Origin: Rhodospirillales bacterium
GTDB lineage: Bacteria > Pseudomonadota > Alphaproteobacteria > Bin95
Direction of reading: 5' to 3'
Length of the DNA: 54,065 nt
Assembly (NCBI GenBank): GCA_038143065.1
Contig: JAYQLI010000030.1
Span: 1 to 54,065 of the forward strand
The translations under genes were made by a program, and so were the position numbers. Positions 7,392 through 52,364 of this stretch are shown here, in pieces (within the stretch, counting starts at the first letter, position 1; each line of letters starts with the position of its first letter). The notes below the pieces were generated by a model, which was given only the letters and a program-made list of their open reading frames with translations, made no database searches and was not told the origin of the DNA.

Positions 7392-8726
7392 ATGGCATTT
7401 CCATAAAGCTGCAGGTTATGGAAACCTTCCAAACGGAAATTTTCCAGCATCATCTACTCAAAAAAGGTCCAGCTAGCGTTCCGAAAGCAACGGCAGTCGT
7501 TGCGACATCACTAACTCCGATTATTTTCGGAGAGATCGTCTCAAGGCGCAACAGTGAAAATCATCAAGGAACCTGAAATTTCGGTCACAGTCTTACAAAC
7601 GTGGCACCGCAATCTCACCAGGACCTTGATGATGAAGACTTCTCACTTGTCATCGATAAGGCGAACTACTTTGCCTTCAAAATTGACGACATTGAGGAAG
7701 CACACTCTTAATAAATGGGAGCTTTTAGGTAACCCTAATCGAAAAACTGGGTGAATTGCTGGAACCCCCTAACGTTTAAGTCGAGGGCAATCAGCAGCCA
7801 AGCCTCGAAAGAGGAAGGTTCAACGACCATTCCGAAAGGAAGTAGGATCAAGCGATCCGAAGCGCCCAGCCCTGATAATTTCAGGGTGATGATATGGTCT
7901 TCTCTGCATGGAAACATGCAGCAGTTCATAAGAGAACGAACAATTAGCGACACTTGTTGAAAACACGGCACGTAAACTTCATGCAATTGGCAACTGACCG
8001 TGCGGCTTACCGCTTGGCAGACCAATTCGACCAAGAAGTTCTAGGGTACCTAGCAGGTTACAAACAATCTGCTCTTCACGGTTCGGCTGACACGGTCAAT
8101 GACCAAGTCAACGAACGAACGAAGGCTGTAGCAACAGCAGGTTCTGACGAACTACTTTCTTCAATGAAGTTGAAAAAGTCCGGATTTGGCAACATCACAA
8201 CTGCTTCTGCTGGCGACCATTCGTTCCACTAGCGGCACGTTTGCCAGAGCGACAACAATGCCAACCGCAACAGCATCACCAGCGATGGTTGCTGCTCGTA
8301 TGGCCCGTCTGCTTGATCAACAACAAGTTGATACGCAGGGTCGTTGGTTGGTCGTAGACCCTGTATTCATGGAACTGCTTCGTGACGAGGACTCTCGTTT
8401 CTTGAACGCAGATTATGGTGAGTCAGGTGGACTACGGAATGGTTTGGTTCTGAAGAATTTCCACGGTTTCCGTGTTTATACTTCAAGCAACCTTCCAGCA
8501 GTCGGAACAGGCCCAGGTACAACTGGTTCTGCTAACCAAAACACCAACTACGGTGTCATCGTTGCAGGTCACGACAGTGCCGTCGCAACAGCGGAGCAAA
8601 TCAGCAAAACGGAAACATACCGTGACCCTGATTCATTCGCCGACATCGTTCGTGGCATGAGCCTTTACGGCAGGAAAATACTCCGCCCTGGAAGGTCTTG
8701 TTTCATGCAAATACAACGCTGCGTAA
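7392..8726 (+). CDS. Major capsid protein, split by a group I intron (exon 1 7392-7708, exon 2 7969-8726)
   Basis: MAF..AAGYGNLPNGNF, VKIIKEPEISV, ANYFAFKIDDIEEAHS|HVNFMQLATDRAAYRLADQFDQEVLGY, ETYRDPDSFADIVRGMSLYGRKILRP; strong SD (AAGGAG) upstream. Confidence 0.9.
7709..7968 (+). ncRNA. Group I self-splicing intron (IA-like, with P7.1/P7.2), 260 nt, no homing endonuclease
   Basis: 5' exon ends in U pairing with guide GGGAG; P2 TTAGG/CCTAA; P3 CTGGGTG/CGCCCAG; P4 TGCTGG/TCAGCA; P6a CCTC-GAAA-GAGG; P7 GACCA/TGGTC (R: GTTCAACGACCA, S: GATATGGTCT); P7.1 TTCC-GAAA-GGAA; P7.2 GGATC/GATCC; P8 CCCTGA/TCAGGG; P9 TGCATG-GAAA-CATGCA; terminal G at 7968. Removal restores the reading frame. Confidence 0.93.
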
Positions 8727-11519: not shown

Positions 11520-14500
11520 ATGGCTGGTTATACCCGGACAATCCGTCGCTGACATTATCAACGGTGCAGAAATTACTGCACCACCCATTAATGCGGAGTT
11601 CAACCAGCTTGTCTCCGCATTTAATGCGACTACGGGCCATGCTCACGATGGTTCGACAGGTAATGCTCCAAAGATCGATCTGACAACATCTGTCACGGGC
11701 TATCTACCAGCTGCCAACGGCGGGATAGGGGGCCTTAACAAGTTCGATGCAACCACTGCACCAGCCGTGAGCAATGACAACACCGAGGGTTATGCACCAG
11801 GGTCACTTTGGGAAAACACCACTGATGGCCGTGTCTATATCTGCGTTGGAAATACTTGAAGGTGCAGCCGTTTGGCGTGAACTGGTCACAGTTTCATCAC
11901 AAGTTTGAGCCGGTCACGTTGGCATAACAGACCTTTATTTGGTACAACCAGACTTCACACTCTTCAGGTGGGTTCCACAATTGAGGGGGCTTAGACCTTT
12001 GCTGGAACACTTACTGGTGTTTCTGGTCCGCTGATCGTGAGGGACCTATTCCAGAGGGCGGAGCAACTGATTGAGGGCAACAACCACATTCTAATGCTGA
12101 TGAGGGACGTTAGGTGTTACGGGCGCAACGATCGCTAGGCGGTAATGCTGCGACAGGAACGTTGGGGGTTACTGGAGACGCCACTTTCGCAAACTTATCT
12201 GCGACTGGCACCACAACGATCACCTCAATCGATCTGAACTCAGGTGCAATCGATAATACGGCGATCGGTGGAACCACAACAGCTGCGGCTGGTACATTTA
12301 CCACGCTGACCGCTAATACAAGCCTCACAGCAGCTACAGCAGATATTAACGGCGGTACAATCGACGGTGCCACCATTGGTGCAAGCACACCTTCGACAGG
12401 TGACTTCACAACACTTTCATCTTCAGGTCTCGCAAGTCTGACATCAGTTAATATTGATGGAGGTGCCATTGATGGTACTGTGATTGGTGCGACTACTGCG
12501 GCGGCGGGTAGCTCACAACAGTCCCATGAACTGGTCAGGCGACTTTAGCCACCGTTGATATTAACGGCGGTGCGATTGATGGCGCCACGATTGGTGCAAC
12601 CACTGCTTCAACAGGCGCATTCACGTCTTTGTCTGCCTCGTCTGGGCTGACTGGCGATGTAACTGGTAACGTCACAGGTAACCTCACTGGCGATGTGACA
12701 GGGGATGTGACGGGTGACGTTACGGGTGATTTGACGGGCAACGTCACAGCTTCCACAGGTTCATCCGTTCAATAACGTGACCATTAACGGTAGCCTCGAC
12801 ATGAACTCTGGCACCACAGCCACGATCACGAACCTGACTAGCCCAACAAATACAAACGACGCAGCTACCAAAAGGCTATGTTGATACACAAGTTGCCAAT
12901 TTGGTTGATAGCGCACCAGGAAACGCTTGATACGCTGAATGAATAGCGGCTGCACTCAACGACGATCCAAACTTTAGCACCACTATCACAAACAGCATTG
13001 GACCAAGCTGCCTCTAGCTGGCGGTACAATGACTGGCGCCATCGCTATGGGTACGTCCAAGATCACTGGTCTTGGCGATCCAACGGCTGCGCAGGACGCC
13101 GCCACAAAGAATTACGTTGACAACGCAGGATGCCCTACAGTTGACGAAAACAGGCGGCACTATGTCCGGCGCTATTGCGATGGCAGTTTCAACAACATCA
13201 CTGGTTTGGCTACGATAGCTGTGCCAATGACCATGCTGCTAACAAGTCATACGTCGATGGCATTCTTGGATCAGCTACAGCGGCATCTGCCTCGGCTGCG
13301 GCTGCGGCGACCAGCGAAAATAATGCCGCAACTTCTGCAACTGCTGCGGCAGCTAGCGCATCCACAGCTTCTTCTGATGCCGCTACTGTGGTGAATCTTT
13401 ATGACGACTTTGATGATCGTTATCTAGGAGCAAAGGCAAGCGCCCCAACGGTTGATAATGATGGTGATGCACTTGTTGTCGGAGCATTGTATTTCAACAG
13501 CACCAACAACATCATGTACGTCTATGGTTCTGGTGCTGGGTGACTGCAGGTTCATCAGTAAACGGTACGTCAGACCGCCAGACTTTACACTGCTATTGCA
13601 AACCAAACGGTCTTTGCTGCTACCTATGATGCAGGTTATGTGGATGTCTACCTGAACGGTGTTGCTACTAGCAGGAACTGACTTCACAGCTACTAACGGT
13701 ACAAGCATTACGCTTGCCTCTGGTGCTGCAGTAAACGACATCGTGGACATTGTGGAAGTTACGGTACATTCGTCCTAGCCGATCACCTCACAGAAACGCA
13801 GCCCATTGCGAAGTATGTGTAGCAATCGCATACAGTGGTGATGTTGATATTGCTGGTCTTGTTAAAATAGAAGGCATACATTTTGGACTTGTTATAAATG
13901 AGACAGACACAACTGATTTAAACACTTACTTTAATAGCAACAGTGGTAATTTCAGACTATTTACAACGGCGATGCTCGCATCTTTTATCATTGAAAGAAT
14001 GTGTTGATCAATTTACAGGCGACATCAGCTTCTACGACACCTTCAGAAACCTAGTTCTTCTGGATGCGGCTGATGAACGGTTGGGCGGGTAGCACAACCA
14101 CTCAAGCCAAATTACATCTAATCAGCCTTAACAAATCAAACGATTCAGCACTTAGAATCACTAACAATGCCGCTGGATCAGAATATATTGATCTTCAATC
14201 TGGAATAAATGGTGTATCAAATGCTGGTTTTCAGCTAGGCGTTAATGGCACAGCACGGTTAGTAGTAAATGACAGCGGCAATGTCGGGATTGGGACGATT
14301 TCAAGCAAGGTAAGCGCAAGACTAACTGTATCGTAAGGTTCAAGTGGTGGCTCTGCAACAGTAACGCTGAAGTTATTGAGGACAACAGCAACACTTACTT
14401 AAACTTAATGTCGCCAAATGGCTTTAATAATGGCATTTATTTTGGTGATGCTGCTGATAATGACATAGGTTATATAAACTATGCTCATGGTTCTGACAGT

Positions 14501-28313: not shown

Positions 28314-31300
28314 TGGCAGATTTTGATTATGAAGAATATGGCTTAACGCCGCTTGAACGACCTTCTGATGTGAAGGCAACGTCAACAGGTGATGACTATT
28401 ATGACAACCTAACTGAAGGGCAGCGTCAAGAAATTCGACAAGATGCCAGAAGACTTGCAAGATTTGTATCGTCGTAATCCGTGCAATGACGATTGGAGAG
28501 CGACAACCTTGAAGCAACCGACCCCAATTACGAGATTATTGGTGGGCGTCGATCTTATGAGGTTACAGATCAGGTAAAAGACGTCGCACAGGCAGATGAT
28601 GCTACTTATCAGGCCATCTATCCTGATGCCAAAACGGTATCTACAGCACGGCGGTAAAAGCCAAGGCAGCTGACTTTTGCGAAGTTGGTGTTTCCAAACA
28701 TGCCTGAGACTGAGGCGCAGCAAGAAAACGAAGCAAACGAAAGAACGTAAGGACTTTTGGAGAAACATCAGAAGTCTACAATGACATCGGTGTGGAGGTT
28801 GATGGAGAGCGGGTATTAGAGCGTTGGACAAGTTGATGAAAACAATCAGTTGGTCATCGAAGACCGCACCCTTATTCCATCCCCAGATAGCACCTATTGG
28901 GGCCGTGTGCTTTCCAATACTCGTCGTCAAATTCAAGGCCAGTTTGGTAGTTTCTAACTGAAGGCGCAATCACAGCTGAAAGCGAGTTTGAAAAAGAATT
29001 CCAACGTTTGAGCAATCACCAGGCGAAGACTTTGTCACAGACCTGTTTGTCTTTGGCCTTCCAGCGACAGCAGTTTTAAAAGGGACAAAGGCTGTTCGTG
29101 GGGCAGCTGCATCAAGATTGTTGCCACAATCGATTGTGAACATGGAGCGGTTGGGTAGAGCCACCGCCTACCTCACAAATACGGCAGGTGTAGCCTTCTC
29201 TGACGCTGTGATGACAACGGCAGATGACCAGACCCTTTTTGATCCGCAGCACGTGGCAAATATCTCGGACTGGATGAAACAGCCGCTAAAGACTTCCAAG
29301 TTGCGTTGAAAGTTTTGCCTTCGCAGGTGCGTTTGATGGTGTTGCCGCACTGGTAACCCCAGTTGGGAGGTTCACAGGGCGCCGTTTTAGAAGGTGTTCG
29401 TGCATTTGCTGACACTGACTTCGTTAAAAACAAAGCCCAGCGTGGTGCCGTGTTAGGCATCATCAATATGCTCGATCCAGAGATCGTTAATGCCAAGCCT
29501 TGGCAGAAGAAGCGAAAGCTGGCGGCAATGGCTGACATGATGTCCGAAAATGCGATCTTAAAAATTACAGCAGGGGATGTCACAGGGGTAATCCCAGCGG
29601 ACACAGCCACTGCCGTGTTGAATGGTGCAAAGAAATACATCGCAAATACCCGCCTTGATATGCGGGGTAAAATGTCCGTTGATGAATACGTCCGATACGT
29701 TGATCAAGAAGCCGGAATAATGGCACTGACCATGCTGGAGATCGCTCGTACACGGGCGGCAAGGCCAGAAATGATACAGGCACAAGGTAACACCATGAGG
29801 GCCTACGAAAACTTCTTAGATGAGGTTTCAGTAAGCAAATTACCTGAAGGCCAATCAGTAAATGATGCGCTAACCACAGCAGTCGAAGATTTGGTTAATC
29901 TACGGAATATCAACATTGACGATGCAGGGTCTGATGTACTTGTGGCTCAAGCGGGTAGGGATCAGATTGAGGGACCGTCTCGCCAATGCAGTAAACGAGG
30001 TTCCTGAATTAGCGGCACTGGTCAACAACACTGATGCCATCTTCAATCAGCAAGCAATCGTATTACGATGCCATTACCAAATCGATGGTTGGCACGGTGA
30101 AGGCAAATCGCTCTTAAAAAGAATACAAGGCAGCATGGAAGGGCGTTCAAGATGCCTATGCTGACGTTCCTAACGTCCCAATCGATCTGCAGCTGTTCAG
30201 TGATAAACTTGATGAGGCACTAACTGCTTCTGGTCCTTTGGATCAAAGCACTGGGGTCGTCCGTCAGGTCTTGGGTGATATTGAGAAAATCTTTAAAACC
30301 GAAAAGGTCGGCGTCGAAGAAATTGCTGATCCACTATCTGATCCAAGAGTTTCTGCCGATACACGGACATCATGCAAACGAAGGAACAAATCTTTTGCTG
30401 GTTTAAGCGAAGTTGGTTTCCAAGATTTGCTGAAATTCAAAAAGGAATTGGAACGCCGGATCGGAAACATGCCCCTACGGTCAGGCACGGATCGATCTTG
30501 AACAATTCTCCCGCCACATCACGGATGCAAATGAAGGACAGTTGGCATTTGTTGCAAGCAGCGGAAACACAGAGGCTGCAGCAGCAGCCCAGAATGCAAT
30601 TGATACCTACATCACCGCCAAGAATACGGGAAAACTCAGCACCATTGCAGCAATTTTCGAAGCTGGCCAGGGAGACGACAGGTGGGAGTGATCCTCGTGG
30701 AATGCCCAACCTGCAGAAGTATGCCACAAATGACATGCCAGGACAGATTTTGGCAGACAAGAGTGGGGGCATTTCTGGACAACTACATCACGGCATTGGG
30801 GCGATTGGGAAAAACGATCCAGCACTTGGACCTTTGCGTGAATTGGCGGAAGCTAACGCTCAGTTTGAACTAGTTGCAGCCTTACGCAGTGGCGACACGG
30901 GCAGGGTGCAGAAGATCAACAAGTGTGATCAATGATAATCTAAATGAATTGAATGCGCTGGGATCAAAGCTACCAGACGACTTCGCTAAAATGCGTGACG
31001 ATCTTTCAGCTACCGAGGGTGATCTGGCAAGTGGATTGATGGATGCAGAAGCTGAACTGACAGCAGCAAAACGTCGTCTAGAGAAGGCTGAGAACACGAT
31101 CCTTGAAAACTTCGTATCAACGCAACCAGAGTTCAGGGATATGCCCGTAGGTAACGCACAAGAAGCCGTCGTTATGCTAATGACTGATGGTGTGGATGGG
31201 GCAAACAAAATACGTGCGCTAATGCAACGGACAGACGAATTACCCGAGGCCCAACGTGGCAGCTGTGCGTGAGGCCCTAAAGGTTCAGCGGTACGTGGGC

Positions 31301-31947
31301 TTATGACTGAGGTGTTCGGTGCCACACCAATTGCTTCAGGCGATACGGCAGCGTTTAATACCAAGATCGGTCGCTTGAAGAATGTGCTCGAACGAGATGG
31401 CAACGACTTCCTTGGTGGCTTGCGTGAATTGTATGCTGATGACCCAGAGGCGCTACAGGGCATTGAACTTGCTCTGACGGGTCTGATGCGCCAGAACGTT
31501 CCACAGCGGCTCAAAGGTAAGCCAGAGCGGCTCTGACACGGCATCTAACGAGCAACTGATCAAAGAAGTTAACGATAGTGTATCAGCTGGGGTCTTGTTG
31601 ATTTTCGGATATATGACGCCAGGTGGGGCCGCAGCGAGAAACGTCGCCCGTGGACGTATTCGTGACATATCGGAACTATCGCAAACTGTTGGTGACGAAA
31701 CTTTAGCAGTAATCCTGTCGAACCCATCAGGATTTGGTCAGTTGATTAGGATATTTCACAAACTGAATCCCGTGGAATTAGAAGCGCAATCACAAAGAAT
31801 TTTGTGGATACAACAACACACGGTTTAGGTTACCAAATTAGGGTCGAAGAAGCAGGTGAAGAGGGTGGTTCAATCGATGAACAAATGTTAGGAATTATCG
31901 AGCAAGGCCAGGATTTATATAGGGAATATGTTCCACCACGCCCTTAA
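28313..31947 (+). CDS. Very large internal virion protein (frameshifted)
   Basis: Chain of long helical ORFs (29363-30007, 30874-31272, 31303-31536, 31595-31828); last gene of the structural module. Confidence 0.6.
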
Positions 31948-31951
31948 AAGT

Positions 31952-32020
31952 GAAAACCCTCAAACCGAAGTTTGAGGGCCACTTACCTAGCTAGCGATCG
32001 GTGACCAAACCAATCGATGC
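31952..32020 (-). ncRNA. Candidate ~70-nt small antisense RNA
   Basis: Minus strand: promoter-like TTTACA-N17-TAGCAA (32055-32027); 8-bp hairpin with UUGGUC loop (U-G pair only on this strand); single-stranded CUAGCUAGGUAAGUGG; terminator CCCUCAAAC-UUCG-GUUUGAGGG-UUUU. Confidence 0.55.
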
Positions 32021-32568
32021 ACTAATTTGCTAGCAAACGGTATTTGTAATGTAAATAAATTATTTACCATTATTTACTAAAGATTACCATGTTTTACTAA
32101 GTAAGTTTAAAACCTAATACCTTGTTTTTTATAGCCTTTCCTTTTTTAGAGAGGCTTTTTTATTAACGTAAATAATTTTACTAAATTTTATCCCTGTGGT
32201 TATCCCGCCACAAATATTTGATGTATCACCTGTAATACATCAGAAATATGACAACTTTCACGATACAATTACCGTTTTGTCACAGAACTGTTACAAAACT
32301 TATTCAGACTCGATCCATCCACATAGTTTGCAAACGGACGTGCTATCCTTTGGAGTAGCGTAAAAGCGTGAAAAAACTTGCGTATCGCAAGTTGACGGAC
32401 TTTGCACAACACGGCAAACTATTGGCACGGGTGATTCGAGGGGCTGGAGGTCACCTGGTCACTTGGGGAGTGATCGCCGGAGTGCTGCAGTCTGACCAAC
32501 TGCGTGAAGGCACTTCAAAATACAAACCCCGTGGAACCCATTCTTTGGGGCCACTTACCTAGAAGGAC

Positions 32569-32829
32569 GTGCGTATGCATATCCCAAAACAAATGGTGCC
32601 AGCAGAAGTGGCATCACATCGGATGTCGATCGAGCAGATCGAACTCAGAGCCTTGGCACTGGAAGAAGTTCAGTTGATGGATGGTTTTCAGTTCGTGATC
32701 TATTTTTCGGATCACGATTACGAAATCGTCTGCATCGATGATGCAACTGCATTCGAGTACAATCCGATGACCGATATTTTGATCGGTGGTAAAAAAAATT
32801 TAGGGGGCAGCTGTGGTAGTTGCCCCTAA
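32569..32829 (+). CDS. Hypothetical protein (86 aa)
   Basis: Intact ORF with SD AGAAGGA, preceded by a long structured leader. Confidence 0.55.
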   Translation: MRMHIPKQMVPAEVASHRMSIEQIELRALALEEVQLMDGFQFVIYFSDHDYEIVCIDDATAFEYNPMTDILIGGKKNLGGSCGSCP

Positions 32830-33525
32830 TGATTCTCCCCTGATTCGGGGTGAAAATCTTAACTGCTCAAATAAAACATGTTTTATTTAGACAGTTAAAA
32901 CCAGTAATCCATAATAAGCCCGTTACAACACAACATCTTGTTTTCATACCTGTAAAACAAGATGTGGTAGGCAAAGAGAATTGTTTTGTAAAATCGTTAT
33001 TTTTCAATGTTTTGGAACAAATTACGAAACAAATAGGCCAACTATCCAAAAGGATGGTCAACCGAAAATTGTCTGCAATCGATAAATATTGCGGTTTACA
33101 GGGTGAGTCGGCCTACGTTATTATTGTGCCACGACGTGCATCAAGCGTCTGGCCTTTCGCAAGCGCAAAGGGCCACTTACCTAGATAGCGATCTTTATCG
33201 CACATGACCAAAAGGTTGGCGAACCAGATAACCGCCCAGATGGCGATCTTAAAACCGCAAAGAAACCGAAGGGGCATGTAGCCTCTTCCCCAATCGATGA
33301 AAGGATCATTACGATCAATCGTCCTCTGACTACGTTAGAGATGACCCCATATGATTTAGAATTGCTTATGGGGATCTCAAGGAGGCGATCCAAGCCTCCC
33401 AAGGTGAGGAGCTAGTCACAATCAATATCGAGGAGACGGCCTCGAATTTGATTATGAAATCCTGACGACTTACCGAATAAGAAGAAAAGCCTAGCTGTTC
33501 ATTTCAACAGCATCTGGCGGTGTTT

Positions 33526-33550
33526 AAGGCTCACTTCGGTGGGCCTTTTT
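33526..33550 (+). terminator. Rho-independent terminator
   Basis: AAGGCTCAC-TTCG-GTGGGCCTT followed by further T residues. Confidence 0.8.
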
Positions 33551-33574
33551 CATATTTAAGACCAGGATTTGCCA

Positions 33575-33776
33575 CCTTGGTAAAAATACCTTGGTGAAAA
33601 CCTTGGTAAAAAGAGAAATGCTCCAACCTTCTAAACCGTTGATATATATGGAAAATAAGAAGTTGGAGCGGGCGATGAGAACCCGCTTCACATTATAAAA
33701 ATAGCATAAAAACTCATAAAATATGGGGTTTTGCTTGCCTTGGTAAAGAAACCTTGGTAAAAACCTTTGGTAGAAA
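33575..33776. other. attP: attP site: tRNA-Gly 3'-end core (33664-33680), 3+3 CCTTGGT(A/G)AA-type arm repeats and an IHF site
   Basis: Reverse complement of 33664-33680 is TCTCATCGCCCGCTCCA (T-arm, acceptor strand and CCA of a tRNA-Gly). Repeats start at 33575, 33589, 33601, 33738, 33752 and 33764 (variant). TATCAACGGTTTA on the minus strand (33632-33644) fits WATCAANNNNTTR. Directly upstream of an integrase. Confidence 0.82.
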
Positions 33777-33788
33777 TACTGAGGTTCT

Positions 33789-35123
33789 ATGGCACGTAAA
33801 TCAGGAAAATATTTGGTTCAGCATTACAACACCTGGTGTGTTGAGATGACGATCCCTACGGACATCCGTCACCACTTCCCGCATGACGGTGGGAAGGCAA
33901 ATCTGCGTGGTAAGTTCAAACGCAAGTTGGCCAGATCGCTAAACACCAGTGATTTTGCTACGGCTGAAGTTGAAAAGCTGAAATGGATTTATGAGTGGGA
34001 AAAAATTGTTCAGCTTCTACCGCTCTGGCGGTACGGGAAGCATGAACACGGATCAGTTGACTGAGAATTACAAAGAACGTTTGGCTGCACACGATGACAG
34101 CGAGATCGGCAGAGCAGTTGTCAGCGATCAGGCATTACGCCGTGATGGTGATCTTTCCTCAGCGCAACTAGAAGCCCGTCAGACAGCTTGGGCACGATCC
34201 ACGGGCAGCTGTGCTCGGTCCTGGCACATATTGATCAGTTCATTGAAAACTATGGCTACAGCCCAAGCGTTGGATTGATGCAAGGGGTTTCTGAAGAATA
34301 GGTTTGGTAAAAAGTTTGAATACTTCGAATGGATCGAGGTGCATCAATTAAAAGAATACGTGACCGTCAGAATGGATGGGTCAGATGGCGATACACCGTG
34401 GGCACGTAGAAGTGCTCAGAAATACATGTCCTACGCCAAACAGTATTGAACTGGTGCATTGATCGAGGCTTAACTCAATCGCTGAACCTTATTGTTCATG
34501 ATCAGATTTTGCCTCGGTGAACAAAACCAAATCTCACCGCAAAGCTGGTAAAGACGCCAACCTGCCATACACGATTGCTGAATGCTGGAAGCTGTATAAC
34601 GCCGCTGTGGAACGGGAATGGCAGGAACTTGCAGATATGATCATCTTGGGATGTACACCGGATGTAGGATCGGCGAATTGGCCCACATGAAACTTGATGC
34701 AGTTGGTACGGATCGGTTCACAGTCGAAGATTCAAAACCGATAGCGGATTGCGTGATATTCCGATCCACAAAGAAGTTCAGCAGGTGGTTGAACGATTGC
34801 GCCAAACGAGCACTGACGGATACCTGATCAGTGGTTTGTCGGACAACAACCAAATCAAAGATCGGGCAGGGGTATTAGTTCCAAGTACGGGCGCCTTTAA
34901 ATCATCACTTGGGTTTCCAAAGAAAGAGAAAACCTTTCACAGTTTCCGTTCCACGCTGGCAACCCGTTTTCAGAGTTCAGGTGTTGACGAATTATTTGCG
35001 GCACGGATTATCGGCCATGCGGCAGGAAACATGACCTACGGCCTCTATGCGGGGGATATTGATTGGGACAAGGCTGTTGCGGTAATGTCCAAGGTCGATT
35101 ATCAGCGACATCTCCACGGATAA
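33789..35123 (+). CDS. int: Tyrosine integrase with DUF6538-like N-terminus (frameshifted)
   Basis: YLVQHYNTWCVEMTIPTDIR N-terminus; YTGCRIGEL (R), TFHSFRST (HxxR), IIGH (H), MTYGLYA (Y). Confidence 0.88.
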
Positions 35124-35132
35124 GGGACGGGC

Positions 35133-35589
35133 ATGGGCAAACTGCTTTATCATTTCACATCAGCCGCTGCGTTGAAGCAGATTTTGATAGCAATCGTCTT
35201 GAACTTGAGGGTCAGCATTTTGTTGATGAACCACTTGCGTACCCCGTTCAGGTTGCTAGGGCCTTAGACGAGCAGTACAGCGCCTGTGGTCGCTTTGTAT
35301 GGTTCACAGAGCGTAGGACCTACCATTCTAGCAATACCCCTGATATGGAAGCGCAGGGATACAGCAAAATGAAGCTGGGATCATAATCGACAGCGATTTG
35401 ATCAATGCGAAAAAGTGGCATTACGTGAAGCGTGATAACAAAAACAATGTTGCCTTTATGAAGGTCGCAGGTGAGAACGACAGAGCCGCCCAGCGCAATG
35501 GAGATGATCCCTATGACTGGTGGGTCTCACCTGAACCGATTGATCTCACGCAGAGACGTTTTTCATGGATACTTATAGCGGACGTGTAA
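35133..35589 (+). CDS. Hypothetical protein (ORFs 35063-35386 and 35398-35589, probably one gene)
   Basis: Two adjacent plausible ORFs with one apparent frameshift. Confidence 0.4.
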
Positions 35590-35861
35590 AAACTCCACTG
35601 CGTTCTCGTTTATAAAAAACGGATTGCAATACATATAAGATGTTGCGGCGACAACGAATATTGCACTGTTAGTCGCTCGACTTCTTGGCTTTTTAAATTT
35701 CGTAATCGGGTTTTGTATATCCCAATAGGCTTTCGTGGCAAGCAGGCGTCTCGTAGTAAACGGGGACCATTGCGATCTACCATTGCCCGTTGATTTACCG
35801 ATCTCACAAACGTAAGTGCATTTCTAACTAATACAAAGTGTAACTTGCATTCAACGATTTA

Positions 35862-36435
35862 GCCTGATGCAATCAGATTTAGCACTTGTTCAACGGGAAC
35901 GCTGTAGAATTGCTCCCCTTCAGGCACTTTGTAATTTTTCACAACAACGATCGGCGCAGCGAGGACAGATGCTCTGCTGGCTACTGCAGCATGGGGTCAT
36001 CTCGTTATTCAGGACGAAAAATGTCGTGGGTTCGTCCGTGAACTTTTTTGCGCATTGGGATGTGGAGGGAGGAATGGAAAAGTAGGACCCTCGCCAACCC
36101 TGTTTCACCTCAACCTCACACCCAATTTCTTACCCTTACCTTCGACGAGTAAATCAACGCCGAAGGTGTCGGGATTGTTCTGACAACTGTAGCTTCCAGC
36201 CGTTTCCAAAACGACTCGAGCGACTTTTCTAGCCTCTGCGTCGAACTTGTCGAACACATCCGGCTCAAAGTATTTAAGCACGGCGCCGTTCCCTATTTTT
36301 GAGATAAGCGCAGTTCCAACCACGGAGCCATTCACGAGCGTAGAATGACGTAGGGCGGTAGGGACAGTTGTCGTCGGTCAGAAAGGCGTTCCAACCAACA
36401 TCATATGGCCTTCGGCAGGAAAGATTGGTTTCATA
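35862..36435 (-). CDS. Hypothetical protein, possible PD-(D/E)XK nuclease fold
   Basis: NPDTFGVDLLVEG..LGVEVE, HIPMRKKKF, FFVLN, GEQFYSVPV across frameshifts; SD GGAG. Confidence 0.5.
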
Positions 36436-41405: not shown

Positions 41406-41423
41406 AGTACTAATACACTAGGA
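41406..41423. promoter_or_regulatory. Repeated ~17-bp motif AGTACTAATACACTAGG (other copies at 44915, 48062, 49604, reverse at 49320 and 45787)
   Basis: Near-identical copies in five intergenic promoter regions; here it abuts TTGATA-N17-TAATCT on the minus strand upstream of the SSB gene. Confidence 0.7.
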
Positions 41424-47015: not shown

Positions 47016-47975
47016 TATGCTAACACCTCGCTGAACGCTTGTGACGCCATGATCTTGGACACACGGTACATACGCTTGGTGAGGCTTTGCATTTCGTTAT
47101 CGACGTTGTCGGAATTGCGAACATGGCAAAGTTCATTATGCGTAGACCATGCGGTCAATGTGGATATGGCGTTCCATAGATTGTTGCCACGGATATGGGT
47201 TTCAGCAACGTAGTGATCCACCATCGCATCGATCTGCGTGTCAGAGAAACGTGATTGCTTCAACAAACGTTGGAATTTACGTGGACCCATCGAAATATCG
47301 CTGTAGTCACGCAATTCGTTCACACGATCCGCAAACAGTTTGATGTCTTCGATTGCACGTTCAGTGCGAACCGCAGGATCAAAGCCCTCTGTGCGACGGG
47401 TGCCAGATTCCGAAACTTCATTCAAAAGAATGATGTTATCGCATGTGTCATCCTTCGCAGCGATCATGATCTTATCAGAACTATACCCATGTGGGTTCAC
47501 GATCATTATGTGTAGGGACAGATTAGCAACCGAACCGTCCAGTTGACGAATTTGGCCGGAATAACCAGGATATTCCAATCGCAGCGATAAAACGCTCCGT
47601 TGTCTTCCACATATTCATTCTGCTTGATGTCCTTGAGCAGGTGGGCAGGGACCTGAGATGTCAGGGCTTTCCACGCTGCATCACGCACAACCTTGTTCTG
47701 GATTGGCACGTATTGCGATCCGCATGTGCCGATCGGTTCGTGTGTTTCCGTATTCATTAGAACACGTCCCACAGATGGATTTACAGAACGCACCGCACCA
47801 CGCATCGTAGCAGTAGGGCGGTGTCTGCTATATAAAGAGGCATACACGCCACTTCATATGCGCCTGCCCCAAGAGGCGGTTGCTGTACAGTCGAATTATC
47901 CGCATCCGCATAGTCAGATTGCGGGATAAAAAAGAACTCGTCAGCTGGGATGATGTTGTTGTCATATTTCGTCAT
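47015..47975 (-). CDS. DUF932-like protein (frameshifted)
   Basis: LMNTETHEPIGTCGSQYVPIQN, GNNLWNAISTLTAWSTH. Confidence 0.65.
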
Positions 47976-48354
47976 AATTGCGCTTTCATTGTTAAGGTCA
48001 GATGTCGCCGCTAGGTAAGAGGCCGTGATCGCAGTAGATCATATAAAAAGGGGGTGTGTCAAGTGCTAATACACTAGGAGATGCGTAATACCGTGATATT
48101 AGTATTTAACGCATTGATTTCAAAATAAATTTCTACTGATATTATGTCAGTAGTAAAAAGTAATAAAAACAACCACTTAACCCTTATAGGGTTAAGCAGC
48201 GTATTGTCTGTTGGGAAATTTTTTTCGTCACTTTTTAAAATTCTCGTCATAGACCTGCAGGTAATACCGCATTTGTCGCCCCATCTCTTCCAGAAATTCA
48301 TCTTTCTTGGATTTCCTCTTACCGAAACGGTCGAGAGACGCTGGGCGAGGGAGT

Positions 48355-49250
48355 TTATTCATAGGCTACCTCATGGTTGTTAAAACGCTTGTGCTGTGCG
48401 GCAGTTGCCATGCGCAGGGATGTCTTCACGTAGGTGCTGACAACCTGACGGGATTTGTGGCCTGTGATGGCTCTGATCTCGTCCTCTGTGCAATTGGCCT
48501 CGCCAAGTTCGGTGGCGCCCGTGCGGCGTAGGTCACCGATCTTCAGATCATCGGGCAAACCTGCCATTGATCTGATGTGTTGCGCCTTCTTGCGATACAG
48601 GCGTTCGCTGTATGGCGCATTCGTGCCCTCATATAGAATGATAGCAGAATTGGGATCACGGTTACTTGAGATGGCATCCAAACGATCCTGTAGGTCAGGG
48701 GATGCTGGCATCTCGATCAATGTGCCAGTTTTCTGCTGGCTGAATTGAAACAAACTGTCATTGTAACTGGACCATGTCATAAGACGACAGTCCACAGGAC
48801 GCTGGCAGAGATCGTAGGCCATCAAGGCAAGGGTGCCGAGGCTACTGATGTCCTGTGCGTCAGACGTATTAATAAAACTGTGCAGATTATCGTGCGTCCA
48901 TGAAATCGTACGAGAGGGCGCTGCGTCGATAGATACCGCAGAGAACGGATTGTGCGACACAAGTTCCAGGCGCTTGCCTGTCGCAAACACAGACTTCCAA
49001 ACACGCATGTACAATCCAGCGGTGGCCTTGGAATGTTTTTCAGACAGCTGCGCATATATCGCTTCCGCATGGATCGGGCGGATCGCATTAACAGATGTCT
49101 GTGCAATGGGCTTGCGGCCAATGGCGATCATCGCCAGCACTTCATTGAATGCGGCTTGATAGGCACGGCGGCTGCTAGAGCCAGACGGCGCCAACGGCTT
49201 GTGGTTTTGTAGTCGGTTACGAGGTGGGTTGCTTTATAAGTCTTGGGCAT
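48355..49250 (-). CDS. int: Tyrosine recombinase/integrase of the HMO-2011-type core module
   Basis: AYDLCQRPVDCR (R), QQKTG (K), GDLRRTG (in place of HxxR), ITGHKS, STYVK (Y); SD AAGGAG; promoter TTGACC-N17-TACATT at 49306-49278. Confidence 0.85.
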
Positions 49251-49277
49251 TGTGATGCTCCTTTAGGTAAGAACCTA

Positions 49278-49353
49278 AATGTACTACTCGCACGTCAGAA
49301 GGTCAAGTGCCAAATATTTTCCTATTGTATTAGTACTGCAGTTGCGGTATGCT
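49278..49353. promoter_or_regulatory. Divergent sigma70-type promoters
   Basis: Minus: TTGACC-N17-TACATT (49306-49278). Plus: TTGTAT-N17-TATGCT (49325-49353). Confidence 0.65.
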
Positions 49354-49359
49354 TGATTC

Positions 49360-49490
49360 GAGGGCGACGATATTCTCCTCTTGGTCGTTGCTCTCAGGAT
49401 TAGTAAGTCATGCTAGTTCCTTTTTGTTGGGTAAACTGGGCCGTTTTTCTCGGGTTTTAACCTCCTACCGAGAAAGCGGCCCTTTTTTTA
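49360..49490 (+). ncRNA. Candidate ~130-nt sRNA with anti-Shine-Dalgarno loops
   Basis: Own promoter; hairpin GAGGGCGACGA..TCGTTGCTCTC with TCTCCTCT in the loop; terminal hairpin GGGCCG..CTCGG-[GTTTTAACCTCCTA]-CCGAG..CGGCCC followed by T7; no ORF. Confidence 0.6.
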
Positions 49491-49728
49491 TACTCGCACG
49501 TCAGAACATATTTAGGTGACATATAAGACGTGCCATCTGAAAACACGTTATTACAAATGTTACTACATCCTGAAAACAAGTTCTCAGATCATAAAATAAA
49601 AAAAGTACCAATACACTAGTAAAGTATTGACGATATTGCTTGAATTTAGGATTCTAAGGGCAGGGGCAAGACCTGACCAGTCGACAAAAACGCCCCCGAA
49701 AACTTACCTAGCAAAAAGGAATCCAAAA

Positions 49729-50492
49729 ATGGGTTATATCAATTTGACGTTAAAGAGCCGCAATCAAAAAGTGGGCAAAGTGCCTGTATCAACAAGCGGC
49801 AAAAAGACTTGCCCCGACGCTTGCCCCTTAAAAGCAAGTGGGGCGTGCTACGCCGACGGGGGCCTTTGGCCTTGTTTTGGGACAAGGTTACAAAACAGGA
49901 AGCAGGGGCGCCGTATGATTTATTTGTTAAACAGGTGGCCGCATTACCAGAGGCCAGTTTTGGCGCCATAATCAAGCAGGGGATTTGCAACCTAGCCCCC
50001 AATTCCCTGACACCATAGACGCCCCAAAGTTGGTGCAATTGGTGGAAGCCAACAAGGGCCGCAACGGATTCACATTTACACATTTTGACATTCTCAAAAA
50101 TCCAGTGAATGAATTTGCAGTTCATGCGGCTAATAAAAACGGCTTCACAATCAATCTTAGTGGAAACAATGTAAGCCACGCCGACAAGCTAGCGGATGTT
50201 GATTGCGGCCCTGTGGTTTCAATATTGCCTCTGGAATATCAAAGACAGGGCAAAGGCAAAGACTTACACGGGAAAGCCTGGACGATTACAAAGCCAGGTT
50301 GTCAGCATTCTCCACAGACAACGCCAGGAGGGCGCAGAATTATTGTGTGCCCTGCAACCTACACCGACGGAATGTCTTGCAATGATTGCCGCCTTATGCG
50401 CAAAAGCAAATCGCAAGACAATCGTGGGCTTTCCAAGCCATGGACGATCCAAACGCAAAGCCGACGTAATAGCGCAGGGGGGCCGCATAATG
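49729..50492 (+). CDS. Cys-rich Gp88-like (DUF7227-like) early protein (frameshifted)
   Basis: SRNQKVGKVPVSTS..TCPDACPL...CYA, WRHNQAGDL, GFTINLSGN, VCPA..MSCNDCRL. Confidence 0.7.
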
Positions 50493-52067: not shown

Positions 52068-52364
52068 CATGAGCATTTATGGAAATGATGCAGTTCTGCA
52101 GGTTCCAGTCTCCTTGAATTTGATATTGATGTAGACAACGATGGGGTGTCTTACCTAGTCGGTAGCGTCTATCTTTCGGATTCTGACGACAGCGAAGAAT
52201 GGCGTGTAGAACTAGACGAGGTGATTGAAGCCCTGTGCGCCGATTACGGAGATGTTGATGGTTATCAGCACCTGTACGTGGTCGCACATGAACTATCACG
52301 AGCATCCGAAACATTACGAGTAGAAAAAGCAGGTCTGGATAGGAGGACAGCGTTTACGCTGTGA
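52068..52364 (+). CDS. Hypothetical protein
   Basis: Includes ORF 52146-52364. Confidence 0.45.

What the first reader, a model, noticed from the sequence alone, without database searches (positions are those of the whole stretch)
31952..32055. Candidate two-site antisense RNA switch: a ~70-nt sRNA complementary to elements in several phage 5' leaders
Seen: the minus strand has a promoter-like site, a hairpin with loop UUGGUC(A), a single-stranded segment CUAGGUAAGUGGCCC and a UUCG terminator. The complement of that segment recurs on the coding strand of leaders: GGGCCACTTACCTAG at 32548-32562 (touching the SD of ORF 32569); AGGGCCACTTACCTAG at 33169-33184; ACTTACCTAGC at 49702-49712 (just before the SD of the Gp88-like gene); GGCCTCTTACCTAGC at 48024-48010 (leader of the DUF932/replication operon); CTTACCTAA at 49271-49263 (abutting the core integrase SD). 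Four of these leaders also carry the complement of the loop: CTGACCA as a hairpin loop at 32492 and 49673, TGACCAAA at 33205 and CTGACC at 48001-47996. I count six exact CTTACCTAG copies, five intergenic, where under one is expected for a random 9-mer. Established: P1/P7 C4 RNA and P4 CI RNA control lysogeny or immunity by two-site pairing. Inference: this phage has an attP and integrase but no recognisable CI repressor, so it may silence its early operons with an undescribed RNA-based switch.
Basis: partly seen in the sequence, partly recalled or inferred. Interest (0 to 1): 0.9.

Follow-up and report, generated by a model that had tools for sequence, protein, structure and literature searches.

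The report
Phage leader motif, possible antisense RNA
A marine phage genome repeats one 15-letter sequence ahead of several gene blocks and once beside a terminator on the opposite strand, which could make a small silencing RNA, but nothing yet shows that this RNA exists.

Summary
CTTACCTAG occurs 6 times in the 54-kb window against 0.06 expected. GGCC[A/T]CTTACCTAG occurs 4 times against 0.00 expected.

The window is a whole contig of an HMO-2011-type phage, full of 1-nt deletion errors. The four robust non-S1 copies, S2 to S5, all point the same way as local transcription. They sit in leaders or next to ribosome-binding sites. The copy at 52150 lies inside a conserved coding gene and is probably chance.

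At S1 the minus strand does look like a roughly 70-nt RNA. It has an 8-bp hairpin, an unpaired stretch complementary to the motif, and a strong intrinsic terminator. This block did not vary in two metagenome contigs although the flanking gene did.

The weak points:
- The promoter is weak.
- No RNA data exist.
- The second (loop) site is not significant.
- No relative allows a covariation test.
- The only other phage lineage with the exact 15-mer has it inside a conserved protein gene.
- A separate promoter-proximal repeat points to a protein regulator as well.

Verdict: a real, lineage-specific regulatory motif. The antisense-RNA switch is the leading reading at about 0.35, and it is unproven.

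The parts
31976..31990 (+). S1: GGGCCACTTACCTAG, 29 nt after the stop codon of the last gene of the structural block. On the minus strand it is the proposed seed (anti-motif).
31955..31980 (-). Intrinsic-terminator-like hairpin with a UUCG loop, followed by a T-rich tail. It abuts the anti-motif.
   Evidence: 11 pairs, 5 G-C; z = -4.73
31995..32016 (-). 5' hairpin of the candidate RNA: 8 contiguous pairs on the minus strand, loop UUGGUC. On the plus strand the same stem is interrupted by a C.A mismatch.
   Evidence: both folds
31950..32022 (-). Candidate small RNA of about 70 nt. Its ends are inferred, not shown.
   Evidence: Other metagenome contigs share only about 31980/31984 to 32018/32022 (table 7).
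32027..32055 (-). Weak promoter-like site TTTACA-N17-TAGCAA. An alternative is TAAATA-N17-TACATT at 32076-32048.
   Evidence: read by eye; not listed
32548..32562 (+). S2: exact 15-mer. It lies 6 nt before the GTG and 12 nt before the ATG of ORF 32569-32829 and touches the AAGGA ribosome-binding site. A hairpin precedes it (GUGGAACCC..GGGGCCAC).
   Evidence: The ORF has no gaps against a metagenome contig (record 27).
32485..32505 (+). Hairpin with loop CUGACCA, 57 nt upstream of S2. This is the proposed second site.
   Evidence: 7-nt match, p = 0.07
33169..33193 (+). S3: 24 of 25 nt identical to S1, preceded by a hairpin and followed by hairpin GCGAU-CUUU-AUCGC and TGACCAAA. It lies about 40 nt after a promoter-like site (33095-33124) and before a plus-strand terminator (33526-33557).
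   Evidence: (family D2)
48010..48024 (-). S4: GGCCTCTTACCTAGC in the leader of the minus-strand replication block, downstream of TTGACA...TATGAT.
49702..49712 (+). S5: ACTTACCTAGC, 17 nt before the ATG of the DUF7227 gene and just before its AAGGA.
49263..49271 (-). S7: CTTACCTAA (weak, 8 of 9). It lies 6 nt after the -10 box of TTGACC-N17-TACATT and abuts the AGGAG of integrase 2.
52150..52158 (+). S6: 9-mer only, inside a conserved coding gene. Probably chance.
48064..48077 (+). One of 6 copies of TACTAATACACTAG (the others at 41408, 44916 and 49606 on +; 49335 and 45800 on -). Each of the three at 48064, 49335 and 49606 lies just upstream of a -35 box, and each of those promoters is followed by an S site.
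   Evidence: 6 found, 0.02 expected

Best explanation
The 15-nt element, with core ACUUACCUAG usually preceded by a hairpin that absorbs the GGGCC part, is a cis-regulatory element in the 5' leaders of this phage's transcription units. These are the replication block (S4), the DUF7227/late-side block (S5), a small ORF (S2), the non-coding transcript upstream of integrase 1 (S3) and perhaps integrase 2 (S7).

The most likely effector is a roughly 70-nt RNA transcribed from the minus strand at S1. It would consist of a 5' hairpin, about 16 unpaired nucleotides that are the exact complement of the motif, and an intrinsic terminator. Pairing next to or over the ribosome-binding sites would block translation and/or trigger early termination. 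One RNA would thereby hold several operons down, as in RNA-based phage immunity.

Shown: the repeats, their orientation, the terminator and the predicted fold, and local sequence conservation. Inferred: that the RNA is made, that it pairs, and what pairing does.
For: 1. Repeats far above chance and specific to this contig.
2. S2, S3, S4 and S5 are all co-oriented with the local genes, 4 of 4. S2, S5 and S7 end 0-4 nt from AAGGA/AGGAG boxes.
3. S1 is the only copy with a strong minus-strand terminator directly after the anti-motif.
4. The minus-strand fold has two hairpins with the anti-motif between them, z = -4.73, and 0 of 200 shuffles fold as well.
5. The 5' hairpin pairs without interruption only on the minus strand, because its G.U pair becomes C.A on the plus strand.
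6. In metagenome contig X1 record 2 (31258-32080), all 23 substitutions lie at 31317-31908 and none at 31909-32080. By my arithmetic this has p about 0.005 if substitutions were spread evenly. In X5 record 25, 6 of 7 differences are listed and all lie outside 31870-32165.
7. Other contigs in 3 of the 4 runs laid share only about 31980/84 to 32018/22, which is the seed plus the 5' hairpin, with unlike flanks (table 7).
8. No known RNA family explains the locus.
Against: 1. No convincing minus-strand promoter. None is listed by the scan. The best hand-found sites match weakly.
2. S3 is a 24-of-25 paralogue of S1. The family could therefore be a duplicated cis element, and the S1 terminator could be incidental. 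S2 also has an A-rich tract before its hairpin.
3. Second-site complementarity is not significant outside S3. By my arithmetic, Fisher-combined p is about 0.2 for S2, S4 and S5.
4. The motif is absent from 160 related loci totalling 1.7 Mb, from 2 complete related genomes and from 36 genomes of the assembly's family. No covariation test was possible.
5. The one other lineage with the exact 15-mer has a single copy inside a conserved 85-aa gene and no S1-like locus.
6. In one variant context seen in two runs, the 30 letters shown after the anti-motif hold no obvious terminator hairpin (table 7).
7. The contig has indel errors, so spacings and homopolymer runs at S1 may be wrong. Record 2 has 6 gaps and record 25 has 2.
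Confidence: 0.35

Rival explanations
1. The element is a cis site read by a protein and no antisense RNA is involved. The reader would be a sequence-specific RNA-binding translational repressor, or a DNA-binding regulator acting just downstream of promoters. S1 is simply another copy, at the start of the next plus-strand unit or in the late 3' UTR.
For: - The copies sit next to ribosome-binding sites or 6-40 nt after promoter-like sites.
- S1 and S3 are paralogues with the same hairpin-motif-hairpin layout on the plus strand.
- The phage clearly also uses DNA repeats at promoters.
- Related phages use palindromic operators in the same control region.
Against: - Three copies are exact over 15 nt and a fourth matches 14 of 15. 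That is stricter than most protein sites.
- No candidate binding protein was found. Pfam and PHROGs gave nothing for the 20 fragments scanned around the S sites.
- This reading does not explain the minus-strand terminator or the G.U/C.A asymmetry at S1.
Confidence: 0.3
2. The element is a nut/boxA-like antitermination signal in nascent RNA: a linear box followed by a hairpin. It would load a host Nus complex or a phage factor onto RNA polymerase at the start of each early operon.
For: - There is one copy in the leader of each divergent early unit (S4, S5), and S1 and S3 have a hairpin 3-4 nt after the box.
- The S4 variant contains CTCTTAC, which loosely resembles the rrn leader box GGTCTTTAAC of the main chromosome.
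Against: - The hairpins after the box differ completely between copies, and S2 and S5 have none.
- The resemblance to the host rrn box covers only a few letters.
- Three copies abut start sites, where antitermination has no obvious use.
- No terminators were mapped downstream.
Confidence: 0.1
3. The element acts at the DNA level. It could be a recombination or arm-type site for one of the two tyrosine integrases, or a small mobile or mosaic-boundary module that spreads between related phages. Any regulatory role would be secondary.
For: - S1-S3 lie within 1.9 kb upstream of integrase 1, and S4, S5 and S7 flank integrase 2.
- S1-S3 are direct repeats spaced 572 and 622 bp.
- The S1 core occurs with unlike flanks in other contigs, and summed contig depth rises over it: 199-207 against 24 just before it and 81 just after it in X3.
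Against: - Orientation follows transcription in S2-S5, 4 of 4.
- The unlike-flank contigs keep a variant of the motif, so they look like diverged homologues and not breakpoints.
- A separate iteron array directly upstream of integrase 1 is a better arm-site candidate.
- No matching attB was found in the assembly. The longest shared word is 18 nt, which is chance level.
Confidence: 0.1
4. The element is a promoter for a phage-specific RNA polymerase or sigma factor.
For: It is a strictly conserved asymmetric 15-mer at the heads of transcription units, co-oriented with the genes.
Against: - The motif ends only 12-17 nt before the ATG start codons of S2, S5 and S7, with the ribosome-binding site in between.
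- No RNA polymerase fragment appeared among the 40 fragments scanned against PHROGs or Pfam. That scan was not exhaustive.
- Sigma-70-like boxes lie upstream of S3, S4 and S7.
Confidence: 0.03

Closest known systems
P1/P7 C4 antisense RNA (immI region)
   Same: A small phage RNA that is needed to keep an operon (icd-ant) off in the lysogen by binding a site in its mRNA (PMC8198154, passages read). As I recall it, not from a call, pairing uses two short segments. The candidate here would likewise hold phage operons down by short exact pairing near ribosome-binding sites.
   Different: - As I recall it, C4 is cut out of the same transcript that carries its target, on the same strand.
- The candidate here lies on the opposite strand and has its own terminator.
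- It would have 4-5 targets in separate operons.
- No Rfam family reached its gathering score, and the 9 sub-threshold matches listed around the S sites include no C4-type family.
- The second pairing site is not supported.
Satellite phage P4 CI RNA (described from recall, no paper read)
   Same: RNA-only immunity. A roughly 70-nt RNA pairs with repeated complementary boxes in leader transcripts and stops expression of replication genes.
   Different: In P4 the RNA and its targets lie in one leader and act through premature termination. Here the targets are spread over the genome and the outcome of pairing is unknown. No sequence or model match was found.
Lambda OOP and P22 sar antisense RNAs (recall)
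   Same: Short terminator-ended phage RNAs that act by pairing with phage mRNAs.
   Different: Those are cis-antisense to a single overlapping gene. The candidate here would act in trans on several unlinked leaders through a repeated 10-15-nt box.
Lambdoid nut sites (recall)
   Same: One conserved box in the leader of each early operon, with a hairpin nearby.
   Different: No conserved hairpin and little likeness to the host rrn box. Three copies lie beside start codons.

Membership tests
C4-type phage antisense RNA (P1 C4 / P4 CI; Rfam family, accession not checked) | Match to the curated covariance model | tested here: not met
   The whole window at gathering threshold gave only a group I intron. 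The E-value searches of 31800-33800 and 47800-49900 listed 9 sub-threshold matches (E 0.13-2.2), none to a phage antisense family.
C4-type phage antisense RNA (P1 C4 / P4 CI; Rfam family, accession not checked) | Two separate segments of the RNA pair with two boxes in the target | tested here: inconclusive
   The first box is exact. Loop-box matches within +-70 nt: S2 7 nt (p = 0.07), S3 8 nt (p = 0.02), S5 6 nt (p = 0.28), S4 5 nt (p = 0.73).
C4-type phage antisense RNA (P1 C4 / P4 CI; Rfam family, accession not checked) | RNA processed from the same transcript and strand as its target (recalled) | tested here: not met
   The candidate is on the strand opposite to all targets and has its own terminator.
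Trans-acting bacterial/phage small RNA with intrinsic terminator | Rho-independent terminator at the 3' end | tested here: met
   31980-31955 on the minus strand: 11 pairs plus a T-rich tail.
Trans-acting bacterial/phage small RNA with intrinsic terminator | Own promoter | tested here: inconclusive
   Nothing passes the consensus scan. Only weak matches were found. Indel errors in the contig may distort the spacing.
Trans-acting bacterial/phage small RNA with intrinsic terminator | Unpaired seed complementary to targets near their ribosome-binding sites | tested here: met
   Fold; site positions. This rests on prediction only.
Trans-acting bacterial/phage small RNA with intrinsic terminator | The RNA is expressed | not testable with these tools
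   No run on record as RNA was listed.
nut/boxA antitermination site | Box resembling the host rrn leader box, followed by a conserved hairpin | tested here: not met
   The host rrn leaders carry GGTCTTTAAC-type boxes. The hairpins after S1 and S3 differ, and S2 and S5 have none.
Phage single-subunit RNA polymerase promoter | Phage RNA polymerase gene, and a start site downstream of the motif that leaves room for a leader | tested here: not met
   No polymerase fragment in the 40 fragments scanned (not exhaustive). The motif ends 12-17 nt before the ATG start codons of S2, S5 and S7.

The most novel reading that the evidence does not exclude
An abundant marine HMO-2011-type temperate phage controls its replication, late-side and integrase transcription units with one trans-acting antisense RNA of about 70 nt. 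The RNA is encoded tail-to-tail with the structural operon. This would be a multi-operon RNA immunity switch unrelated in sequence to the P1/P4 C4 family. Read-through from the late operon would produce its own sponge. The same seed matches 17-18 nt of a conserved small gene in a competing phage lineage, so the RNA might also exclude relatives.
Probability: 0.25. Interest if true: 0.7.

Novelty: new variant of a known kind. Interest (0 to 1): 0.5.

Why it matters
HMO-2011-type phages are among the commonest phages in the sea, yet how the integrase-bearing ones choose and hold lysogeny is not known to me from any paper seen here. RNA-only or RNA-assisted immunity is known from only a few enterobacterial elements (P1/P7, P4).

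A simple, exactly repeated target box in several operon leaders would be easy to test with reporters and compensatory mutations. If confirmed, it would extend RNA-based immunity to marine alphaproteobacterial phages.

Even if a protein turns out to read the box, the motif marks the early regulon of this phage.

Tried and rejected
1. Other genetic codes as an explanation for the short ORFs. Rejected. Reading TGA, TAG or TAA through gives overlapping frames, not clean genes. Split Pfam and PHROG hits, and single-base insertions in metagenome contigs, show indel errors instead.

2. Near and distant DNA search of annotated phages. One gave no match and the other a 66-bp match.

3. Relatives through proteins next to the sites. 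None were found for ORF 47018-47614 or for integrase 2, in IMG/VR or in genome contigs.

4. The exact 15-mer in IMG/VR. It hit 16 contigs:
   - 12 belong to one lineage ('R-type').
   - 1 is a related phage whose match lies inside an AP2/HNH-like ORF.
   - 3 are unrelated coding hits from 2 distinct sequences.

   I first took the R-type copy as conservation of the element. I gave that up when its ORF proved to be a conserved 85-aa family with 1157 hits. There the 15-mer spells E-G-H-L-P-R in a patch that varies between members. The lack of variation around the copy in 8 R-type sequences fits protein constraint.

5. Homology of ORF 32569-32829, or of the ORF upstream of it, to that family. Rejected: hhalign probability 5% and 0.1%; tblastn E of 0.5 or worse.

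6. The S1 hairpin module and the S1/S3 25-mer in IMG/VR and genome contigs. No hits.

7. Complementarity of the motif to host rRNA. The best match is 8 nt, p = 0.52.

8. attB in the assembly. The longest shared word is 18 nt.

9. RNA duplex scan of the window with the candidate RNA. After the self matches at S1, S3 and S2 rank first and S4 ranks fourth, behind one site on the non-transcribed strand. This only restates the repeats, and the energies are inflated.

10. Expression. No RNA holder was listed among the 24 runs.

11. Literature. One search on HMO-2011 regulation gave nothing useful in its listing. Supplementary files were not consulted.

Full report
WHAT THE WINDOW IS. The window is the whole of contig C30 (54,065 bp) of a 4.63-Mb, 52-contig assembly. 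It shares no long stretch with the other contigs. Fragment-wise PHROG and Pfam hits give the following map:
- Plus strand up to 31947: terminase, major head protein and the rest of the structural block.
- 33789-35386 (+): a tyrosine integrase. Its DUF6538 N-terminal domain lies at 33783-34061.
- Minus strand, about 36.4-48 kb: ribonucleotide reductase, MazG, RusA, DNA polymerase, DnaB-type helicase and primase.
- 48358-49233 (-): a second integrase.
- From 49729 (+): a DUF7227 gene.

The head protein fragment is 72-83% identical to those of Roseobacter phages CRP-345, CRP-9, CRP-1, CRP-13, CRP-603, CRP-2 and CRP-207 and of Puniceispirillum phage HMO-2011.

The contig is poor in quality. It has no ORF longer than 292 codons, and none of it lies in ORFs of 300 codons or more, against 54% for the first 300 kb of the main contig. 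The DUF7227 gene is split over three frames. Metagenome contigs carry single extra bases, mostly G, at many places (table 4). Every ORF call and every spacing in this report carries that caveat.

THE OBSERVATION. The repeat counts are given under the observation check: 6 exact 9-mers against 0.06 expected, 4 copies of the 14-mer with up to one mismatch against 0.00 expected, and only chance levels in the rest of the assembly. I name the copies S1 (31976-31990), S2 (32548-32562), S3 (33169-33184), S4 (48024-48010, minus strand, one mismatch), S5 (49702-49712, 11 nt), S6 (52150, 9 nt) and S7 (49271-49263, 8 of 9).

S6 lies in a gene with homologues in 14-24 related loci and reads as ordinary coding sequence. 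S7 is at chance level on its own. S1 to S5 are robust. S1 and S3 share 24 of 25 nt.

CONTEXT OF THE COPIES. S2 to S5 all point the way the local genes are transcribed.
- S2 ends 6 nt before the GTG and 12 nt before the ATG of ORF 32569-32829, touching AAGGA. This ORF has no gap against a metagenome contig (record 27). All four runs insert a G after 32436. That makes the small upstream ORF stop at the TGA inside CTGACCA, so S2 is intergenic.
- S5 ends 17 nt before the DUF7227 ATG, just before AAGGA.
- S7 starts 6 nt after the -10 box of TTGACC-N17-TACATT and abuts the AGGAG of integrase 2.
- S4 follows TTGACA...TATGAT at the head of the replication block.
- S3 lies about 40 nt after a promoter-like site (33095-33124). 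It is followed 340 nt later by a strong plus-strand terminator, in a stretch of about 950 nt without a convincing ORF upstream of integrase 1.

At S1, S2 and S3 the GGGCC(AC) part of the motif is the 3' arm of a hairpin whose 5' arm differs in each case. This leaves ACUUACCUAG unpaired. S4 and S5 have weaker hairpins just upstream.

A second repeat, TACTAATACACTAG, occurs 6 times against 0.02 expected. It sits just upstream of the -35 boxes of the S4, S5 and S7 promoters and at three places inside the replication block. The layout is therefore: repeat, promoter, S box, ribosome-binding site.

THE S1 LOCUS. S1 begins 29 nt after the stop codon of the last structural gene. On the minus strand the anti-motif is followed at once by the best terminator-like site in the region: 11 pairs, a UUCG loop and a T-rich tail. 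It is preceded by an 8-bp hairpin with loop UUGGUC.

The 78-nt minus-strand fold has z = -4.73. The plus strand folds almost as well (z = -4.80), because the long hairpin is symmetric. Two details favour the minus strand. The 5' hairpin is uninterrupted only there, since its G.U pair becomes C.A on the plus strand. The U tract also exists only there.

The promoter is the weak point. The scan lists none, and the best candidates found by hand are poor.

COMPARATIVE EVIDENCE. The motif is not a general feature of the group.
- Among 80 IMG/VR and 80 metagenome loci anchored on the terminase (54-81% identity, 1.7 Mb), every 9-mer hit I inspected lies in coding sequence or an unrelated context. One example is the conserved terminase W-M-T-Y-L-E codons.
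- CRP-345 and MW202701 have none.
- 36 genomes of the assembly's family have none.
- The exact 15-mer in IMG/VR found one related lineage: 12 contigs, collinear with the window. There the copy is single. It lies inside a conserved 85-aa gene (1157 relatives), in a patch that varies between members. I therefore do not count it as support.

Public runs gave the most useful data. Twenty DNA metagenome runs from 10 studies hold 28-38% of the sampled words of 30500-34500. Contigs of four runs were laid on 31000-36000.
- They confirm the order S1-S2-S3.
- The S1 block is invariant where the adjacent gene is not. In X1 record 2, all 23 substitutions lie before 31909. In X5 record 25, the 6 listed of its 7 differences lie outside 31870-32165.
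- In 3 of the 4 runs there are contigs that share only about 31980/84 to 32018/22 with the window and run on into unlike sequence on both sides. Summed contig depth also rises over this stretch.

The seed plus 5' hairpin is thus a module found in other, more abundant relatives. One version carries a changed seed. That is the material for a covariation test, but I could not fetch those contigs.

THE SECOND SITE. I took a 15-nt probe around the S1 loop and searched +-70 nt around each copy. The longest matches were 7 nt (S2, p = 0.07), 8 nt (S3, p = 0.02), 6 nt (S5, p = 0.28) and 5 nt (S4, p = 0.73), against 20,000 random places. All centre on TGACC. In S2 and S5 the match sits in a hairpin loop. 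S3 is a paralogue of S1, however, and without it the combined signal is not significant. The two-site claim is unproven.

ALTERNATIVES TESTED.
- Known RNA families: none.
- Pairing with rRNA: none.
- nut/boxA: the host rrn leaders have a GGTCTTTAAC-type box with little likeness, and the hairpins are not conserved.
- Phage polymerase promoter: the distances to start codons are too short.
- Recombination site: orientation and the variant flanks argue against it, and no attB was found.
- Protein operator: cannot be excluded, and it is the main rival.

CONCLUSION. A strand-specific box of 10-15 nt marks the leaders of this phage's transcription units. The single copy at the end of the structural block is built, on its opposite strand, like the gene of a small terminator-ended RNA whose free segment is the exact complement of that box. 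I put the antisense-RNA switch at about 0.35, a protein-read element at about 0.3 and other readings lower.

If the RNA exists it works like P1 C4 or P4 CI, but it is not a member of that family. It shows no model match, lies on the opposite strand, has its own terminator and has several unlinked targets. That makes it a new variant of a known kind.

Noticed in passing
window 7699-7921 (+): A group I intron (Rfam RF00028, 92 bits, E = 2e-22) interrupts the major head protein region. A related phage runs straight across the site: its positions 12259 to 12269 correspond to window 7699 to 7969.
   Followed up: partly
window, whole contig; e.g. 34202, 34276, 34447, 34515, 35185, 35367: The contig is riddled with single-base deletions, mostly G, relative to metagenome contigs. 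Integrase 1, the DUF7227 gene, DNA polymerase and others are split over frames. This is an assembly artefact, not pseudogenes.
   Followed up: partly
window 41408, 44916, 48064, 49606 (+); 49335, 45800 (-): The 14-bp repeat TACTAATACACTAG, 6 copies against 0.02 expected, lies in either orientation just upstream of -35 boxes. It is probably the operator or activator site of a protein regulator.
   Followed up: partly
window 33574-33781: Four to five direct copies of ACCTTGGTAAAAA lie directly upstream of integrase 1. They are candidate arm-type sites or iterons.
   Followed up: no
window 32035-32300: An AT-rich stretch holds inverted GTAAATAAT-type repeats around a plus-strand terminator (32133-32165) and two near-perfect palindromes (32211-32250, 32274-32299). 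It looks like a switch or attP-like region.
   Followed up: no
window 32859-32898 and 32930-32968: There is a 40-nt palindrome (20-nt arms, no spacer, 85% complementary) and a 15-bp hairpin after ORF 32569-32829.
   Followed up: no
G000 contigs C35 (two copies), C39, C49: There are three different rRNA operon contexts with different leaders. The assembly therefore mixes at least three organisms, and the phage's host among them is not established. The 16S 3' ends read ...GGATCACCTCCTTTCT.
   Followed up: no
L037 19252-19509 and relatives: An 85-aa protein family is nearly invariant in its middle part (…HIPKSDVFYVRAAIEADTG…DHVERAMYLEG…) and has 1157 relatives on 55-58-kb contigs. Its function is unknown. 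No ortholog was detected in this window.
   Followed up: partly
window 47989-47973 (-): After S4, a 5-codon mini-ORF (ATG AAA GCG CAA TTA TGA) overlaps the ATG of the first gene of the replication block. This could be a leader peptide or a translational coupling device.
   Followed up: no
L037 18060-19250; L039/L040; L041: Related phages carry their own repeated operators in the divergent control region: TTGTGATCACAA in the R-type lineage and CRP-345, TGTCCAACGTTGGACA in CRP-345, TTGTACGTACAA in MW202701, and AGAGTTATAAC repeats in the R-type lineage.
   Followed up: no
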